Shown here piece by piece: positions 3,522 to 10,475 of a stretch of DNA of 37,438 bases (its first letter is position 1; every line of letters starts with the position of its first letter). The position numbers and the translations under genes were made by a program. The stretch lies in UHGV virus genome UHGV-0041833; one strand, given 5' to 3'. This DNA is from a virus. The notes beneath the pieces are model-generated. The model saw only the letters and a program-made list of their open reading frames with translations, made no database searches and was not told where the DNA came from.

Positions 3522-4388
3522 TTAACGAATAGTGTCGTTACTTTGAAGTACAGCAAATGCCATTAATACTTCTAAAGTATATCTTCTATAAAATTTAACA
3601 AAACCAACATAGAAAACATAGACGAAGAAAAAGCTAAGCATTATTGAAAGTAAACTATAAAGATAATCACTATGAGTACATAATCGATAAATAAAGGTTG
3701 GAACTGATACCCAAAATGAAATTATAAAGATTAAACATATGTTTCTGCAAAAACCATATAATGCAACATAGTTTTGAATTTTTGTTTGATGTTGTTTTGA
3801 AAACTCATAAACATAATGATATGCCAATCTGAAGAGATCATCATCAAGTCCGTTTTTATCTTGTAATAATTGGCGATTTGTTATGAACTTTTTCTCATAA
3901 CCTTCTTTGATCATTAACCATGTTGTATTAGCTAAATGAAATGGTAGAGATTGAGAATAACATAGTTTTTGTGTTATAAAATCCCATAGTATTATTGGAC
4001 ATAATACGCATTTGATTATGCGATTCTTTATTTTTGTTTTTTTATCAGCGCTTCTCTCATCGCATGATGGGCTACAAATGCTTTCTGAGGTATCTATCAA
4101 TTTTTTAAATAGATATTTGGAAGGATATCCTAATTCTTTATTCATGTATTTTTCGATAAAAAATGCTGACGTGATAGAAATAAAATGTCCAGCTATATAA
4201 GATATAATAACTATTGAAGCGTAGTTCAAAATGCCAAAGATTTGACTTTGACCTCTGAGCAATTCACTTAAGTCAATAACAATATCTAGATCGAATGTCA
4301 AACCACAGAAATACATTAATAGGATAAAAAAACCACCTGGTATTAAATATCCAAGAAAGTCATAGAATGAGAATGGATTTTGATTCAT
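3522..4388 (-). CDS. Polytopic inner-membrane protein of unknown function (AT-rich cargo gene upstream of xis-int)
   Basis: 288 aa from ATG 4388 with GGAGA SD; several hydrophobic helices at N- and C-termini; strongly AT-rich; 108-bp AT-rich upstream intergenic region with promoter-like hexamers. Confidence 0.6.
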   Translation of the reverse strand: MNQNPFSFYDFLGYLIPGGFFILLMYFCGLTFDLDIVIDLSELLRGQSQIFGILNYASIVIISYIAGHFISITSAFFIEKYMNKELGYPSKYLFKKLIDTSESICSPSCDERSADKKTKIKNRIIKCVLCPIILWDFITQKLCYSQSLPFHLANTTWLMIKEGYEKKFITNRQLLQDKNGLDDDLFRLAYHYVYEFSKQHQTKIQNYVALYGFCRNICLIFIISFWVSVPTFIYRLCTHSDYLYSLLSIMLSFFFVYVFYVGFVKFYRRYTLEVLMAFAVLQSNDTIR

Positions 4389-4496
4389 TGTTGCTCTCCA
4401 ATAATTTTTCAATTTGTAATATAACCTATATCTATATGTTAATAAATTACTTATATGTTCTTTTATGGCAGAGTTTGAATTCGTACGTGCTGATTT

Positions 4497-6401: not shown

Positions 6402-6869
6402 TTTGCTGCTCCTCATCATATCGACCCTGCAAGGTCGGTTGGTTTCTCCACAAAACAGAGAAGAACACCTGCGGTGGCAGCCGCCCGGGTGGATTGGGTT
6501 ATGAGCCCGTCGTCCGGTGATGCTCTTCTCTGTTTTGTAAAAAGAGCGGTACCAGCCGGAAGCAAGGGTACAAGCTGGTACCGCCAGGACTACACACAGC
6601 ATAAAGTTGTGGTGCCGGGTGCCTCCCGGTGCCTGGCGAAGGTTGCACACCAGGCGGGTGGGTATCCACAGAAGGTCGACTGTCAGCCTCAACCTTAACC
6701 CGCGTGCGCTGAGCCGCATTCACCACAACGCTAAGGATTCTCTCTGGTTGAAAATACTTAGCTGTTATGTGCCTGCTTTTAGCCACATCAGGCGAGGTGG
6801 GCCTGGTTATTCCCCAACAACAAGGATTCGGCTAATCTGGATGACTCTGTTCTTAGAGGGGATAATTAA
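6402..6869. other. GC-rich, hairpin-dense non-coding region (candidate early-left promoter/leader or structured RNA)
   Basis: About 470 bp with no convincing ORF on either strand, multiple stable stem-loops, and operator-like half-site GGTACAAG identical to the OR1 right half. Confidence 0.3.
6546..6584. repeat. 11-bp perfect inverted repeat gcggtaccagc / gctggtaccgc with 17-nt spacer
   Basis: Direct reading; the spacer contains GGTACAAG; each arm contains palindromic GGTACC. Confidence 0.6.
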
Positions 6870-7382
6870 ATGGGAGCGATTTATGTTAAACGTTTGATTC
6901 TGTCGGTAGCACTGATAATACCGATAGCATCCAATGCTTCTGATGCTTTGAACCAGCCGAGCAGTAGTCTAAATGATGGTGTTGAGACTTTTTTTATTTC
7001 CTGCTTTGATATGCCTCAGGAAACAACTACTGATATGGACGCTTGTCAGAGAGTTCAGTTAGCTCAGGTTAGTTGGGTTAAGAATAAGTATTCGGTGGCC
7101 GCCCTGAATCGTTTGAAACAAGACAACAAGGATGATCCACAGCGTCTGCAGGAATTAACTGCTTCTTTTAACGCGGAAAGTGAAGCTTGGACAGAATTAA
7201 TTGAGAAAGCGTCAAAGTCCGTCCAGGTTGATTATGCAGGAGGAACTATAGCTGGCACTGCAGTTGCATCACGTCAAATTGGTCTTCTGGAATTACAATC
7301 CCACGATATCTGGGAGCACTGGCTACGATTCGAGGACTCAACTCCTCCTCTTTTGCCAGAACCAAAGTTCAAATCTGAGTAA
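6870..7382 (+). CDS. Secreted periplasmic protein with cleavable signal peptide (possibly DUF1311/LprI-like); moron
   Basis: 170 aa; GAGGGG SD; N-terminal signal peptide MGAIYVKRLILSVALIIPIASNA; own terminator downstream; opposite orientation to neighbouring early genes. Confidence 0.6.
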   Translation: MGAIYVKRLILSVALIIPIASNASDALNQPSSSLNDGVETFFISCFDMPQETTTDMDACQRVQLAQVSWVKNKYSVAALNRLKQDNKDDPQRLQELTASFNAESEAWTELIEKASKSVQVDYAGGTIAGTAVASRQIGLLELQSHDIWEHWLRFEDSTPPLLPEPKFKSE

Positions 7383-7408
7383 TAAGTCATCCAGATTGTT
7401 AAAGAGCG

Positions 7409-7432
7409 AAGCGTCCTATAGGGCGCTTTTTT
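7409..7432 (+). terminator. Rho-independent terminator after the secreted-protein gene
   Basis: 8-bp stem (aagcgtcc/gggcgctt) with tata loop followed by TTTTTT. Confidence 0.6.
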
Positions 7433-7549
7433 GTTGCTAACGAATCATCCTGGACTTCATATGCCCCAGGCGGCTACTTCGTGGGCGTCCTGCCTGTTTG
7501 TTGTTTCTCTTGGGTACATTATGTATCTCAAAGGTATATTATCAAGTAT

Positions 7550-7572
7550 AAAAAAACCTGCCGAAGCAGGTT
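7550..7572 (-). terminator. Rho-independent terminator downstream of cI (minus strand)
   Basis: cctgc cgaa gcagg hairpin preceded on the plus strand by A7, giving a U-tract on the minus-strand transcript. Confidence 0.55.
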
Positions 7573-7584
7573 CATAAACATTGA

Positions 7585-8259
7585 TTAGGCTTTGATTTTG
7601 TATCTTCTTGGTTTTCCTGAGAAAATCACAGTACCAATTATAGAGCAATTACCGTTGATCTTAATGTAAGGCTCAGGCCAGTTTGGGTTTAACGCTTTGA
7701 GATAACGCTGTGTCCCATCTTCTATCAACCTTTTGAAGGTGGTTTCACCTGTATCGTGCATCAATGCAATAACGTCGTCACCGTGGCAGGCAGGTACTTC
7801 AGGATCGACAAAAATCATGTCTCCCGGGCGGTACTCATCAATCATTGAATCACCTATCACCCGCAAGATATAAGTCATTTCCCCACAGGGTACAGGGCAG
7901 GGATACGTTTCTGCTGTGCTCAAATCAACCTCAGAATATCCAACTTCTTTCCATGCTCCGGCCTGTACCCATGATATGACAGGGACTAATGTGATTTGTT
8001 TATTAGTGATTGAAACATCAGGTTTTTTTGTGATGTTCGTTGTCTGGTGTTCTTGATCGAGCCATCCGACAGGCAGGTCGAAACATTTTTCGATGTGTCG
8101 TGCCATGCTGTCACCGATATTTTTAGTAGCACCATCTCCCATAAACCTGCTGGTCTGGGTTGGCTCGCGATCAATCATAGTGGCAAAGGAAGAATTCCCG
8201 CCAACACCATCTCTCAGTTTTCTGGCGTTAGACCGCCGGATGTCATGGATTGTTTTCAT
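7585..8259 (-). CDS. cI: CI-type repressor (N-terminal HTH, C-terminal S24 LexA-like autopeptidase domain)
   Basis: 224 aa; Ala-Gly cleavage-site-like WVQAGAW, Ser nucleophile motif GDSM, downstream Lys; divergent from cro across operator region. Confidence 0.85.
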   Translation of the reverse strand: MKTIHDIRRSNARKLRDGVGGNSSFATMIDREPTQTSRFMGDGATKNIGDSMARHIEKCFDLPVGWLDQEHQTTNITKKPDVSITNKQITLVPVISWVQAGAWKEVGYSEVDLSTAETYPCPVPCGEMTYILRVIGDSMIDEYRPGDMIFVDPEVPACHGDDVIALMHDTGETTFKRLIEDGTQRYLKALNPNWPEPYIKINGNCSIIGTVIFSGKPRRYKIKA

Positions 8260-8274
8260 AACGAAATTAAAACC

Positions 8275-8345
8275 CTTGTACCGTTAAGGTACAAGTATCT
8301 TGAAGGTTCATTTCAATCATGTAATATGTACACCGGAGGTACACA
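8275..8345. promoter_or_regulatory. Right operator region: two 17-bp palindromic operators (TGTAC-N7-GTACA) flanking a rightward promoter (-35 TTGAAG 8300..8305, -10 TAATAT 8322..8327)
   Basis: OR1 cttgtaccgttaaggtacaag (8275..8295), OR2 atgtacaccggaggtacacat (8325..8345); promoter hexamers with 16-bp spacer; cro SD GGAGG at 8335..8339. Confidence 0.6.
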
Positions 8346-9480: not shown

Positions 9481-9500
9481 AGGTCGGTCATGAGCACTAA
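9321..9500 (+). CDS. Hypothetical small protein (TTG start) translationally coupled to the replication gene
   Basis: 59 codons, AGGAG SD 9 nt upstream of TTG; stop overlaps the ATG of the next gene (ATGAGCACTAA); protein-like composition ([19 protein letters not shown]...). Confidence 0.35.
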
Positions 9501-10475
9501 ATTAACCGGCTATGTATGGGATGGTTGCGCTGCGTCAGGCATGAAGTTATCCAGCGTGGCAATTATGGCCCGCCTGGCTGATTTCAGTAATGACGAAGGT
9601 GTGTGCTGGCCATCAATTGAAACCATTGCCCGCCAGATTGGCGCGGGGATGAGTACCGTCAGAACGGCTATCGCACGGCTGGAAGCAGAAGGCTGGTTAA
9701 CGCGTAAGGCGCGTCGCCAGGGTAACCGCAATGCGTCGAATGTTTATCAGCTTAACGTTGCGAAGCTTCAGGCAGCGGCATTTTCTCAACTGTCAGATTC
9801 TGACCCGTCAAAATCTGACGCATCAAAATCTGCCCCGTCAAAATTTGATGCGTCGAAATCTGGCAAAAAAGCGGGTTTTCACCCGTCAGAATCTGGCGGG
9901 GATCCGTCAGTAAAATCAAAACATGATCCGTCAGATAAAAAAACTTCTCGTCCNNNNNNNNNNNNNNNNNNNNNNNNNNNNNNNNNNNNNCTCGTCCGGA
10001 CGCTTCGCAACCGGACACGCAGACGGCTGAACAGGAGTTTTTAACTCGCCATCCTGATGCTGTTGTATTCAGCCCTAAAAAGCGCCAGTGGGGAACGCAG
10101 GATGATTTGACCTGCGCACAGTGGCTCTGGAAAAAAATCATCGCCCTGTACGAGCAGGCTGCCGAATGTGACGGCGAGGTGGTTCGTCCCAAAGAACCGA
10201 ACTGGACAGCCTGGGCAAACGAAATTCGCCTGATGTGTGTGCAGGATGGTCGTACTCACAAACAAATCTGCGAGATGTACAGCCGCGTCAGCCGCGATCC
10301 GTTCTGGTGCCGTAACGTGCTCAGCCCGTCGAAGCTGCGGGAAAAATGGGATGAGCTTTCCCTGCGCTTATCGCCGTCCGTAAGTACGTACACCGAAAAA
10401 CGCGAGGACCCGTACTTCAAAGCCAGTTACGACAACGTGGACTACAGCCAGATCCCGGCAGGATTCAGGGGGTGA
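9490..10475 (+). CDS. Replication initiator (N-terminal HTH, internal origin iterons, DnaT-like C-terminal domain); interrupted by an N-run
   Basis: N-terminal winged-helix region; iteron-encoded repeat peptide DPSKSDASKSAPSKFDASKS; C-terminus ends YSQIPAGFRG like primosomal protein DnaT; both halves come into one frame if the N-run plus the 7-nt flanking duplicate are collapsed. Confidence 0.7.
9791..9946. repeat. Origin-like iteron array inside the replication gene, followed by an A-rich tract
   Basis: At least 6 direct repeats of about 15 bp with core CGTCA(A/G)AATCTG, then gataaaaaaac. Confidence 0.6.
9954..9990. other. Assembly gap (37 N) flanked by duplicated ctcgtcc
   Basis: N-run; identical 7-mer on both sides; collapsing restores the reading frame. 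Confidence 0.8.

What the first reader, a model, noticed from the sequence alone, without database searches (positions are those of the whole stretch)
6870..7432. Secreted-protein moron with its own terminator inside the immunity region
This 170-aa protein has a classical cleavable signal peptide, a good SD and a canonical intrinsic terminator. It is oriented opposite to the surrounding early genes and convergent with cI, the architecture of a lysogen-expressed moron. The mature protein loosely resembles DUF1311/LprI-like periplasmic proteins (lysozyme-inhibitor family), suggesting a lysogenic-conversion or envelope-protection role.
Basis: partly seen in the sequence, partly recalled or inferred. 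Interest (0 to 1): 0.5.

Follow-up and report, generated by a model that had tools for sequence, protein, structure and literature searches.

The report
Secreted DUF1311 protein in prophage cargo slot
This is a real prophage accessory gene for an exported protein of the poorly understood DUF1311 family, and it is one of at least 26 interchangeable cargo genes plugged into a conserved slot next to the phage repressor; its function is still untested.

Summary
ORF 6870-7382 (+) is a real gene: dN/dS is 0.11-0.21 against orthologues, and it matches phrog_7681 over its full length. It has a Shine-Dalgarno site and a typical Sec signal peptide (cut after SNA, residue 23). An intrinsic terminator follows at 7408-7435, and the gene is convergent with the cI/YmfK repressor.

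New context:
- The gene lies just downstream of, and antisense to, the repressor-controlled early-left promoter.
- It occupies a conserved frame: TAATCTGGAT | cargo | ATCCAGATTGTTAAAGAGC + terminator. In related phages this frame carries at least 26 unrelated cargo genes.
- The terminator therefore belongs to the slot, not to the gene.
- Cargo ends form an inverted repeat that co-varies between the two arms.

Only a weak candidate promoter was found, and expression in lysogens is unproven. The most likely role is a periplasmic binder of a cell-wall-cleaving enzyme. This is a new member of known kinds and moderately interesting.

The parts
6762..6842 (+). Conserved upstream part of the slot frame (GCCTGC TTTTAGCCACATC AGGCG AGGTGG ... 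TATTCCCCAACAACAAGGATTCGGCTAATCTGGAT)
   Evidence: It is conserved in 41 distinct frames even where the DNA further upstream is unrelated. As RNA, the + strand leader 6770-6869 folds with z -2.2 and the - strand with z +0.5.
6810..6838 (+). Candidate weak cargo promoter: -35 TTCCCC (6810-6815), 17-nt spacer, -10 TAATCT (6833-6838). The predicted start near 6845 coincides with the cassette boundary at 6843.
   Evidence: The hexamers and their spacing are kept, with unrelated spacer sequence, in chromosomal or remnant copies in Raoultella and Klebsiella. One frame type has a perfect TATAAT at this position. It matches consensus at only 6 of 12 positions and was not found by the standard scan. This is inference.
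6834..6857 (+). Left arm of the inverted repeat flanking the ORF (AATCTGGATGACTCTGTTCTTAGA)
   Evidence: Pair I2 is 24 nt and 79% complementary, with a 13-nt perfect core. The arms pair with each other in both the MFE and the centroid fold of the whole mRNA.
6856..6861 (+). Shine-Dalgarno GAGGGG, 8 nt before the ATG
   Evidence: Read directly from the sequence.
6870..6938 (+). Codons for the Sec-type signal peptide (residues 1-23, MGAIYVKRLILSVALIIPIASNA)
   Evidence: Heuristic n/h/c-region analysis and conservation in homologues. pLDDT is below 50 for residues 1-24.
6939..7382 (+). Mature 147-aa acidic DUF1311-superfamily domain (beta-hairpin, three long helices, C-terminal DSTPPLLPEP strand; Cys45 and Cys59) plus the stop codon
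7374..7397 (+). Right arm of the inverted repeat (TCTGAGTAATAAGTCATCCAGATT); it overlaps the last codons and the stop codon
7389..7407 (+). Conserved downstream frame sequence ATCCAGATTGTTAAAGAGC
   Evidence: It is shared with PhiR29_1, with Klebsiella and E. albertii prophages, and with more than 120 IMG/VR contigs carrying other cargo.
7408..7435 (+). Intrinsic terminator of the slot (stem-loop 7408-7429, then a T tract)
   Evidence: It is conserved with different cargo genes.
7502..7545 (-). Candidate early-left promoter pL (TTGATA-16-CATAAT, 7545 to 7518) with two operator-like sites (7502-7518 and 7522-7538). It fires leftward, through the cargo gene in antisense.
   Evidence: The promoter scan scores it 10/12. 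The operator pattern TGTACC-N5-GGTACA matches the sites between cI and cro at 8277-8293 and 8327-8343, giving 5 hits against 0.85 expected. The e14 copy reads TTGACA-16-CATAAT. Assignment as pL is inference.
7554..7573 (-). Terminator of the cI transcript
   Evidence: z -5.3; annotated in SfV.
7585..8259 (-). cI-type repressor (YmfK, LexA/S24 family), convergent with the cargo gene

Best explanation
The window is an SfV/e14/CPS-53-like prophage of extraintestinal E. coli.

ORF 6870-7382 is an accessory ('moron') gene. Its product is exported by Sec, loses a 23-residue signal peptide, and becomes a soluble, acidic, 147-residue periplasmic protein. The fold is DUF1311: a three-helix bundle capped by a small sheet. 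Cys45 and Cys59 probably form one disulfide.

The gene sits in a conserved expression slot. The slot has an upstream frame with a weak candidate promoter, a downstream frame with an intrinsic terminator, and cargo ends that pair as an inverted repeat. Related phages of Escherichia, Klebsiella, Raoultella and Erwiniaceae fill this slot with many unrelated genes.

The slot faces the repressor-controlled early-left promoter. By inference, the cargo can be made while pL is shut in the lysogen and is overrun by antisense transcription after induction. The slot terminator would also keep cargo transcription from running into pL and cI.

The mechanism I commit to is this: the mature protein binds and neutralises a peptidoglycan-cleaving enzyme of the lysozyme, muramidase or lytic-transglycosylase type that acts in the lysogen's periplasm, and so protects the envelope. 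The source of that enzyme is open. It could be a type VI secretion effector from a rival, a muralytic enzyme on the virion of a superinfecting phage, or host lysozyme.

Shown: the gene is real and under purifying selection, the signal-peptide features, DUF1311 homology and fold, and the slot architecture. Inferred: the promoter, lysogen expression, the disulfide, and the target.
For: Gene reality.

Export signal.

DUF1311 membership:
- Pfam PF07007 at E 0.006.
- A profile built only from the window family finds 243 proteins at E <= 1e-3. Of 67 sampled members, 65 are PF07007.
- Foldseek's top hit is 3gi7 with probability 0.99.
- The extended profile hits 3gi7 at 5e-7 and 6ar7 at 2e-6 by sequence.

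Slot architecture:
- Homology with PhiR29_1 breaks at 6843 and 7388.
- There are 26 cassette types between the same junctions, all with a + strand ORF.
- Orthologues of 65-71% identity occupy the same yfdP | gene | S24-repressor position in Klebsiella and E. albertii.
- 142 of 5426 complete E. coli genomes carry this cassette, against 1931 that match part of the 901-bp query.
- Cognate cassette ends pair better than non-cognate ends, permutation p 0.0006.
- The terminal stem is kept in the MFE and centroid folds.

Position relative to pL and its operators.

Functional precedent from papers:
- The DUF1311 protein Etsi4 neutralises the periplasmic cell-wall toxin Etse4 in E. coli O157 (PMC12981562).
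- DUF1311 genes flank WHIX type VI effectors (PMC12135965).
- ScwA is a periplasmic DUF1311 protein that controls levels of the lytic transglycosylase MltD (PMC7933661).
- The region between repressor and N is a recognised site of accessory genes (PMC7067206).
Against: - No biochemical or expression data exist for this protein.
- No strong promoter was found.
- The Pfam score is below the curated cut-off (17.3 against 22 bits).
- The second conserved cysteine pair of DUF1311 is absent.
- There is no pairwise similarity to the Etsi4 equivalent ECs_0213.
- No toxin or effector gene lies next to this gene or next to its relatives.
- ScwA gave no lysozyme protection (PMC7933661).
- Neither this protein nor six other cargo proteins tested (five from the TAATCTGGAT frame plus SfV orf33) match known defence families at significance; the one hit was marginal (PDC-M18B, E 0.002). 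The slot's general role is therefore unknown.
Confidence: 0.4

Rival explanations
1. Orphan type VI immunity protein. The prophage gives its host a periplasmic antidote to a muramidase-type effector injected by rival Enterobacterales. This is a specific version of the best explanation.
For: DUF1311 proteins act as, or sit at the position of, type VI immunity proteins (PMC12981562, PMC12135965). The protein is predicted to be periplasmic. The fold resembles TsiV3. The carriers are gut and extraintestinal E. coli, Klebsiella and Raoultella.
Against: No similarity to the E. coli Etsi4 equivalent was detected. No effector gene lies nearby in any context examined. The TsiV3 match is at a Z level common for helical bundles.
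Confidence: 0.15
2. Superinfection exclusion. Like T4 Spackle, the periplasmic protein blocks the cell-wall-piercing enzyme, or another periplasmic step of DNA entry, of incoming phages.
For: The gene is next to the repressor, a classic place for exclusion and defence genes such as rexAB and bstA (PMC7067206). Other cargo in the same slot includes small 2-TM and multi-TM proteins, a shape typical of exclusion proteins by my own knowledge. The protein is periplasmic and helical.
Against: No match to PADLOC defence models. No related viral structure in BFVD. Spackle did not appear among the fold matches. The analogy rests on my knowledge of T4, not on a test here.
Confidence: 0.15
3. ScwA-like modulator of the host's own cell-wall hydrolases. 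It would tune envelope homeostasis or the timing of lysis rather than defend against outside enzymes.
For: ScwA is the only soluble periplasmic enterobacterial DUF1311 protein studied in the papers read here. It controls MltD and other hydrolase levels, and it lyses cells when overproduced (PMC7933661).
Against: ScwA is 275 aa with two disulfides and an extra N-terminal region. The window protein has one cysteine pair and a different N-terminal hairpin. No close similarity between the two was found.
Confidence: 0.12
4. Inhibitor of animal lysozyme: lysogenic conversion towards host-immune resistance.
For: The Pfam family is named after LprI, a mycobacterial lysozyme inhibitor (PMC7933661 citing Sethi 2016). 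Many carriers are human extraintestinal isolates.
Against: In LprI, lysozyme inhibition is attributed to the MliC domain, which is absent here (one search shows no other Pfam hit). ScwA gave no protection. The known Gram-negative inhibitors named in the ScwA paper (Ivy, PliC, PliG) are other protein types, not DUF1311 (PMC7933661).
Confidence: 0.08
5. A conserved passenger whose function is unrelated to peptidoglycan enzymes, for example binding another periplasmic ligand or protein, or which is expressed mainly in the lytic cycle.
For: DUF1311 is a large family with no defined activity. Relatives are stand-alone genes in varied contexts, including a conjugative element. No promoter is proven.
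Against: Strong purifying selection. The slot position is retained across genera. The orientation, head-on to pL, argues against lytic-cycle expression.
Confidence: 0.1

Closest known systems
DUF1311 / LprI family (Pfam PF07007; structures 3gi7 and 6ar7; E. coli YecT, COG3755)
   Different: Below the Pfam gathering score. The second cysteine pair is replaced by Ala/Ser. It has an extra N-terminal beta-hairpin. It is carried by a prophage rather than on the chromosome.
[not shown]
   Same: Small signal-peptide-bearing DUF1311-type proteins in E. coli. ECs_0213 also scores just below the Pfam threshold (E 0.002). Their proposed role is to neutralise a periplasmic cell-wall toxin.
   Different: No detectable pairwise similarity. 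Etsi4 sits beside its effector in a type VI cluster. The window gene is alone in a prophage.
ScwA of Salmonella Typhimurium
   Same: A soluble periplasmic DUF1311 protein of an enterobacterium, horizontally acquired and linked to peptidoglycan hydrolases (PMC7933661).
   Different: ScwA is 275 aa with two disulfides and an N-terminal extension, and is not phage-borne. No close sequence relationship was seen.
Lambdoid morons beside the repressor (lambda rexAB, BTP1 bstA, P22/lambda sieB)
   Same: An accessory gene in the mosaic region next to cI, variably present among relatives and flanked by a terminator (PMC7067206).
   Different: rexAB and bstA are co-transcribed with cI. This gene is on the opposite strand, convergent with cI and head-on to pL. 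It lies in a frame with fixed junctions and an inverted repeat.
Defence-gene hotspots of P2-like phages and P4-like satellites
   Same: A fixed position in a phage backbone, bounded by conserved sequence, that holds many alternative unrelated cargo genes (bioRxiv 10.1101/2021.01.21.427644, abstract only, from the listing).
   Different: A different phage group and position. The cargo is mostly a single gene (a few types carry a second small ORF) of 425-892 bp. The slot seems to supply promoter and terminator. No cargo tested here matches a known defence family at significance.

Membership tests
DUF1311 / LprI (PF07007) | Scores above the Pfam gathering threshold | tested here: not met
   17.3 bits against a 22-bit cut-off, E 0.0062, residues 50-137 on model positions 8-96.
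DUF1311 / LprI (PF07007) | Homology detectable by profile search that does not start from DUF1311 sequences | tested here: met
   A profile of 8 family members found 243 proteins at E <= 1e-3. 65 of 67 aligned members scanned match PF07007, best E 8e-20. The extended profile hits 3gi7 at 5e-7 and 6ar7 at 2e-6.
DUF1311 / LprI (PF07007) | DUF1311 three-helix fold | tested here: met
   [not shown]
DUF1311 / LprI (PF07007) | Four conserved cysteines (two disulfides), as described for ScwA-type members | tested here: not met
   Only Cys45 and Cys59 are present. The positions of the second pair are Ala/Ser in the window protein and its closest relatives.
DUF1311 / LprI (PF07007) | Secreted or periplasmic location (signal peptide) | tested here: met
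   n/h/c regions and an SNA|SD cleavage site, conserved in homologues. This is heuristic only; SignalP was not available and localisation was not tested.
MliC/PliC-type lysozyme inhibitors (the part of LprI credited with inhibition) | MliC domain (PF09864) | tested here: not met
   No Pfam hit other than PF07007 at E <= 10. HMMER's filters drop most matches above E ~0.1, so the effective limit is lower.
Phage moron | Present in some and absent from other closely related phage genomes, between conserved flanks | tested here: met
   The flanks match SfV, SfIV, PhiR29 and others, but the ORF is absent from all 50,697 phage records. 142 of the 1931 E. coli genomes matching part of the 901-bp query carry it.
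Phage moron | Own terminator | tested here: met
   Terminator at 7408-7435, although it belongs to the slot and is shared by other cargo.
Phage moron | Own promoter | tested here: inconclusive
   No + strand match of 9/12 or better. There is a weak TTCCCC-17-TAATCT candidate whose hexamers and spacing persist in remnant copies.
Phage moron | Expressed from the repressed prophage | not testable with these tools
   Needs RNA-seq, 5' RACE or RT-qPCR of a lysogen.
Type VI secretion immunity protein | Encoded next to its cognate effector | tested here: not met
   Neighbours are yfdP and cI. Relatives are also stand-alone. An orphan immunity gene is not excluded.
Type VI secretion immunity protein | Neutralises an effector | not testable with these tools
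   Needs co-expression or competition assays.
Superinfection exclusion protein (Spackle-like) | Reduces infection by other phages | not testable with these tools
   No PADLOC match. Plating assays are needed.

The most novel reading that the evidence does not exclude
SfV/e14-like temperate phages of Enterobacterales carry a dedicated 'expression socket' facing their early-left promoter. The socket has a fixed weak promoter, fixed junctions, a clamp that pairs the two ends of the cargo transcript, and a fixed terminator. Dozens of unrelated lysogen-benefit genes are swapped into it. The DUF1311 cargo would be a new kind of prophage-borne periplasmic shield. It would neutralise incoming peptidoglycan-cleaving enzymes, either type VI effectors or phage tail lysozymes.
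Probability: 0.2. Interest if true: 0.65.

Novelty: new member of a known kind. Interest (0 to 1): 0.4.

Why it matters
If the protein does neutralise a cell-wall-cleaving enzyme, it would give DUF1311, a very large family without a defined activity, a testable phage-borne example. It would also show prophages arming extraintestinal E. coli and Klebsiella against bacterial or viral attack on the envelope.

Separately, the conserved slot holds at least 26 alternative uncharacterised cargo genes, with many more probably unsampled. That makes it a compact hunting ground for new lysogen-expressed functions, in the way P2/P4 hotspots were for defence systems. The paired cargo ends could reveal how such cassettes are exchanged or stabilised.

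Tried and rejected
1. PDB sequence search with the family-only profile found nothing significant. Only the extended profile reached 3gi7 and 6ar7.
2. tblastn against 50,697 phage records found no match. The gene is known only from prophages and IMG/VR contigs.
3. The BFVD viral fold library gave no meaningful match.
4. PADLOC and Pfam scans of six other cargo proteins (five from the TAATCTGGAT frame plus SfV orf33) gave no significant family; the only hits were marginal (PADLOC PDC-M18B E 0.002; Pfam TMF_TATA_bd, below cut-off).
5. Direct comparison with the EHEC Etsi4 equivalent showed no similarity.
6. I looked for toxin or effector neighbours of relatives and found none.
7. I tested which RNA strand the inverted repeat favours. 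The minus strand looked more stable in 20 of 26 cassettes. Non-cognate arm pairs show the same bias, so it is compositional and the strand is undetermined.
8. I searched IMG/VR for an 'empty' slot (junctions 0-30 nt apart) and found none.
9. I considered a pseudoknot or two-hairpin element in the upstream frame. Three sequence variants can form similar stems, but the alignment is not in register, one loop would be 0 nt long, and the lineages are few. I make no claim.
10. Sigma-70 scans of 54 distinct upstream flank sequences (200 nt each, from loci with the TAATCTGGAT junction) found no consistently strong promoter.
11. Rfam found no known family over the frame itself.
12. Literature searches for the RefSeq accession found nothing, and the search for ymfI returned only incidental mentions that I did not follow up.

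Full report
**What is there**

The window is a prophage of the SfV / e14 / CPS-53 type. A 901-bp stretch around the finding is 100% identical to chromosomes of human and avian extraintestinal E. coli such as SF-166, PA45B and UPEC129, and 99.8% identical to NU14 and APEC O18. RefSeq annotates the neighbourhood as integrase, yfdR, yfdQ, yfdP, a frameshifted pseudogene, then the ORF in question (WP_000500990.1, 'hypothetical protein'). After it come ymfK (the LexA/S24-type cI repressor), ymfT (cro) and ymfL.

The ORF is 6870..7382 on the + strand, 170 aa, starting at an ATG. A GAGGGG Shine-Dalgarno site lies 8 nt upstream. A terminator follows at 7408-7429 with a T6 tract, with dG -14 kcal/mol and z -2.5. 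cI (7585..8259, -) is convergent with it and has its own terminator at 7573-7554.

**It is a real gene**

- It matches phrog_7681 (function unknown) end to end at E 1e-120.
- Orthologues of 71% identity (Klebsiella) and 65% identity (E. albertii) give dN/dS of 0.11-0.21 at dS of about 1-1.5. The ORF is 74% identical in nucleotides, while its flanks are 82-93% identical.
- No opposite-strand ORF of 40 aa or more overlaps it.
- All public copies are named 'hypothetical protein'.
- It is absent from 50,697 deposited phage genomes. It is present in IMG/VR prophage contigs and in 142 of 5426 complete E. coli genomes.

**Export**

The N-terminus has two positive charges (K7, R8). A 12-residue hydrophobic core follows (L9-A20, mean Kyte-Doolittle 2.9), then S-N-A with a predicted cut before S24. 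There is no lipobox and no other hydrophobic segment. The same layout is kept in homologues down to about 30% identity. AlphaFold leaves residues 1-24 unstructured. The mature protein is 147 aa with pI 4.6 and two cysteines, C45 and C59. SignalP could not be run, so this is a heuristic call, though a clear one.

**Family**

Pfam gives only PF07007 (LprI/DUF1311), at E 0.006 and 17.3 bits, below the 22-bit cut-off.

To test the relationship without circularity, I built a profile from eight members of the gene's own family. I searched it against 1.8 billion representative proteins. It found 243 hits at E <= 1e-3 and 64 at E <= 1e-10. Of 67 sequences scanned (66 sampled hits plus the window protein), 65 match PF07007 on their own.

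The AlphaFold model (pLDDT 80.6) has a beta-hairpin (31-43), three long helices (53-85, 90-121, 126-152) and a C-terminal strand.
- The extended profile also reaches 3gi7 and 6ar7 by sequence.

So the protein is a divergent DUF1311 member. It keeps the first cysteine pair and the C-terminal H-D-I-W...DSTPPLLPEP tail. It has lost the second cysteine pair that most relatives carry.

**What DUF1311 proteins are known to do (from papers)**

- LprI of M. tuberculosis inhibits lysozyme, but it also carries an MliC domain, which is credited with the inhibition.
- The Salmonella periplasmic DUF1311 protein ScwA gives no lysozyme protection and instead controls levels of the lytic transglycosylase MltD (PMC7933661).
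- In EHEC, the DUF1311 protein Etsi4 neutralises the periplasmic cell-wall toxin Etse4 (PMC12981562).
- DUF1311 genes flank WHIX type VI effectors (PMC12135965).

The common thread is binding to peptidoglycan-cleaving enzymes in the periplasm. That is the basis for my preferred mechanism.

Direct links are missing. The Sakai equivalent of Etsi4 (ECs_0213) is itself a sub-threshold PF07007 hit but shows no similarity to the window protein. Relatives of the window protein sit as stand-alone genes, one of them on a conjugative element, and never beside an effector.

**Transcriptional setting**

Between the two facing terminators lies a strong minus-strand promoter-like site, TTGATA-16-CATAAT, from 7545 to 7518. 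It is bracketed by two sequences at 7502-7518 and 7522-7538. These resemble the operators between cI and cro (TGTACC-N5-GGTACA at 8277-8293 and 8327-8343). The pattern gives 5 hits in the window against 0.85 expected. In K-12 e14 the same site reads TTGACA-16-CATAAT.

I take this to be pL/oL. This is inference. The DUF1311 gene is then the first thing the early-left transcript meets, and it meets it in antisense. In the lysogen pL is repressed, which would leave the cargo free to be transcribed. After induction, head-on transcription should silence it. The + strand terminator would also stop cargo transcription from entering pL and cI.

**The slot**

Homology with PhiR29_1 stops at 6842 and resumes at 7389. 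Homology with SfV and e14 stops at 6800 and resumes at about 7436-7439. PhiR29_1 has a different + strand gene between the same junctions and the same terminator.

I scanned IMG/VR for the right junction, ATCCAGATTGTTAAAGAGC, and got more than 120 contigs. Pairing it with the left junction, TAATCTGGAT, defined 26 cassette types of 425-892 bp. Every type has a + strand ORF, and in most types an SD and start codon lie about 28 nt after the junction. Cargo includes:
- a coiled-coil plus zinc-ribbon protein, the commonest type;
- 2-TM proteins;
- a multi-TM protein;
- a gene pair;
- three sub-variants of the DUF1311 protein.

None match Pfam or PADLOC families at significance.

The Klebsiella and E. 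albertii orthologues sit in the same slot, the Klebsiella one beside a different repressor type. An Erwiniaceae genome has a diverged full frame. So the terminator and the upstream element belong to the slot, not to this gene. No empty slot was found. The SfIV paper had noted that the two ORFs left of its cI are unique, but it did not analyse the site. The repressor-to-N region is a recognised moron site in lambdoid phages.

**Inverted repeat**

The ORF is flanked by AATCTGGATGACTCTGTTCTTAGA (6834-6857) and TCTGAGTAATAAGTCATCCAGATT (7374-7397). The pair is 79% complementary with a 13-nt perfect core. The outer 9 nt are frame sequence. The inner part is cassette-specific.

Other cassettes have their own inner arms, most often ATCCCCAACAAC... 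and ...GTTGTGGAT. Across the 26 types, cognate inner arms pair better than non-cognate ones: mean duplex energy is -11.2 against -9.5 kcal/mol, permutation p 0.0006, and ungapped Watson-Crick pairs give p 0.0001.

The stem closes the whole transcript in both the MFE and centroid folds of 6828-7436, and in the MFE of all 26 cassettes on either strand. An apparent preference for the minus-strand RNA vanished under a non-cognate control. I therefore cannot say whether the stem serves the cargo mRNA, the pL transcript or the DNA. Shared ancestry of the arms, rather than selection, is not excluded.

**Promoter**

No + strand sigma-70 match of 9/12 or better exists upstream. The best candidate is TTCCCC (6810-6815), 17 nt, TAATCT (6833-6838). 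This would start transcription near 6845, exactly at the cassette boundary.

Its support is comparative. Chromosomal or remnant copies in Raoultella and Klebsiella keep TTCCCC or TTCTCA, a 16-17 nt gap and TAATCT, while the spacer sequence is unrelated. One frame type carries TATAAT there. It matches consensus at only 6 of 12 positions and may need an activator. It remains a hypothesis.

**Verdict**

This is an ordinary kind of object, a prophage accessory gene beside the repressor, with a correct but distant family assignment and an unknown function. What adds interest is the conserved, cargo-swapping slot that faces pL, and the paired cargo ends.

I rate it a new member of known kinds, with interest 0.4. 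My confidence in the proposed mechanism, periplasmic neutralisation of a peptidoglycan-cleaving enzyme, is about 0.4. By contrast, I am highly confident that the gene is real, that it carries a signal peptide, that it belongs to DUF1311, and that the slot architecture is as described.

Noticed in passing
window 6537-6759 (-): Full-length match to the prophage sRNA family STnc100 (RF02076): 45.4 bits against a gathering score of 47, E 3e-8. It lies just downstream of the cargo slot in the early-left (pL) direction and overlaps a RefSeq 'frameshifted hypothetical protein' pseudogene (about 6416-6726). A 2026 preprint links STnc100 and PasD to phage late regions near Q. Here it would be an early-left leader RNA.
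   Followed up: partly
window 6843-7388, and loci L009-L128: The slot TAATCTGGAT | cargo | ATCCAGATTGTTAAAGAGC + terminator holds at least 26 unrelated cassette types in IMG/VR contigs. All carry + strand ORFs of unknown function, and the cassette ends form co-varying inverted repeats. No empty slot was found.
   Followed up: partly
window 6770-6805, and alignment A5: A conserved hairpin-like element, GCCTG(y)C-TTTT.CCAC.TC-AGGC followed by GGTGG, lies upstream of the slot. It is also present in e14 and SfV. Two rare sequence variants (L106 type and L044) can form analogous stems, but the evidence is too thin to call it a structured RNA or a protein-binding site.
   Followed up: partly
window 7502-7545 (-): Candidate pL promoter with two operator-like sites related to the cI/cro operators at 8277-8293 and 8327-8343. 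In these phages the early-left transcript must cross a head-on cargo gene and the reverse of its terminator before reaching yfdP.
   Followed up: partly
L135 498-1085 (E. coli K-12 e14) and L001 3103-3625 (SfV): e14 and SfV use wider junctions (window 6800 and about 7436). They carry a convergent gene pair there: ymfI(+)/ymfJ(-) in e14, and in SfV an unannotated + strand ORF of about 80 aa facing orf33(-). A sigma-70-like TTCACC-16-TAT(G/C)CT precedes their + strand gene.
   Followed up: partly
window 9955-9990: A run of 36 N (masked or unresolved bases) inside the replication-protein gene 9490..10044, in a region of short peptide repeats (PSKSDASKS...).
   Followed up: no
window 3522-4412 (-): ORF of 296 aa (TTG start as listed; RefSeq aa) for a hydrophobic, multi-TM-looking hypothetical protein between the integrase/excisionase genes and yfdR. 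It may be another accessory gene.
   Followed up: no
L140 (Klebsiella sp. WOUb02), L139 (Raoultella scottii), L138/L130 (Raoultella MAG): Chromosomal copies of the DUF1311 gene (56-66% identity) lie outside intact prophages. One is beside dinI, an IS1595 element and umuDC. They retain only the TAATCTG part of the left frame and lack the right frame, which suggests prophage decay or capture of the gene with its promoter.
   Followed up: partly
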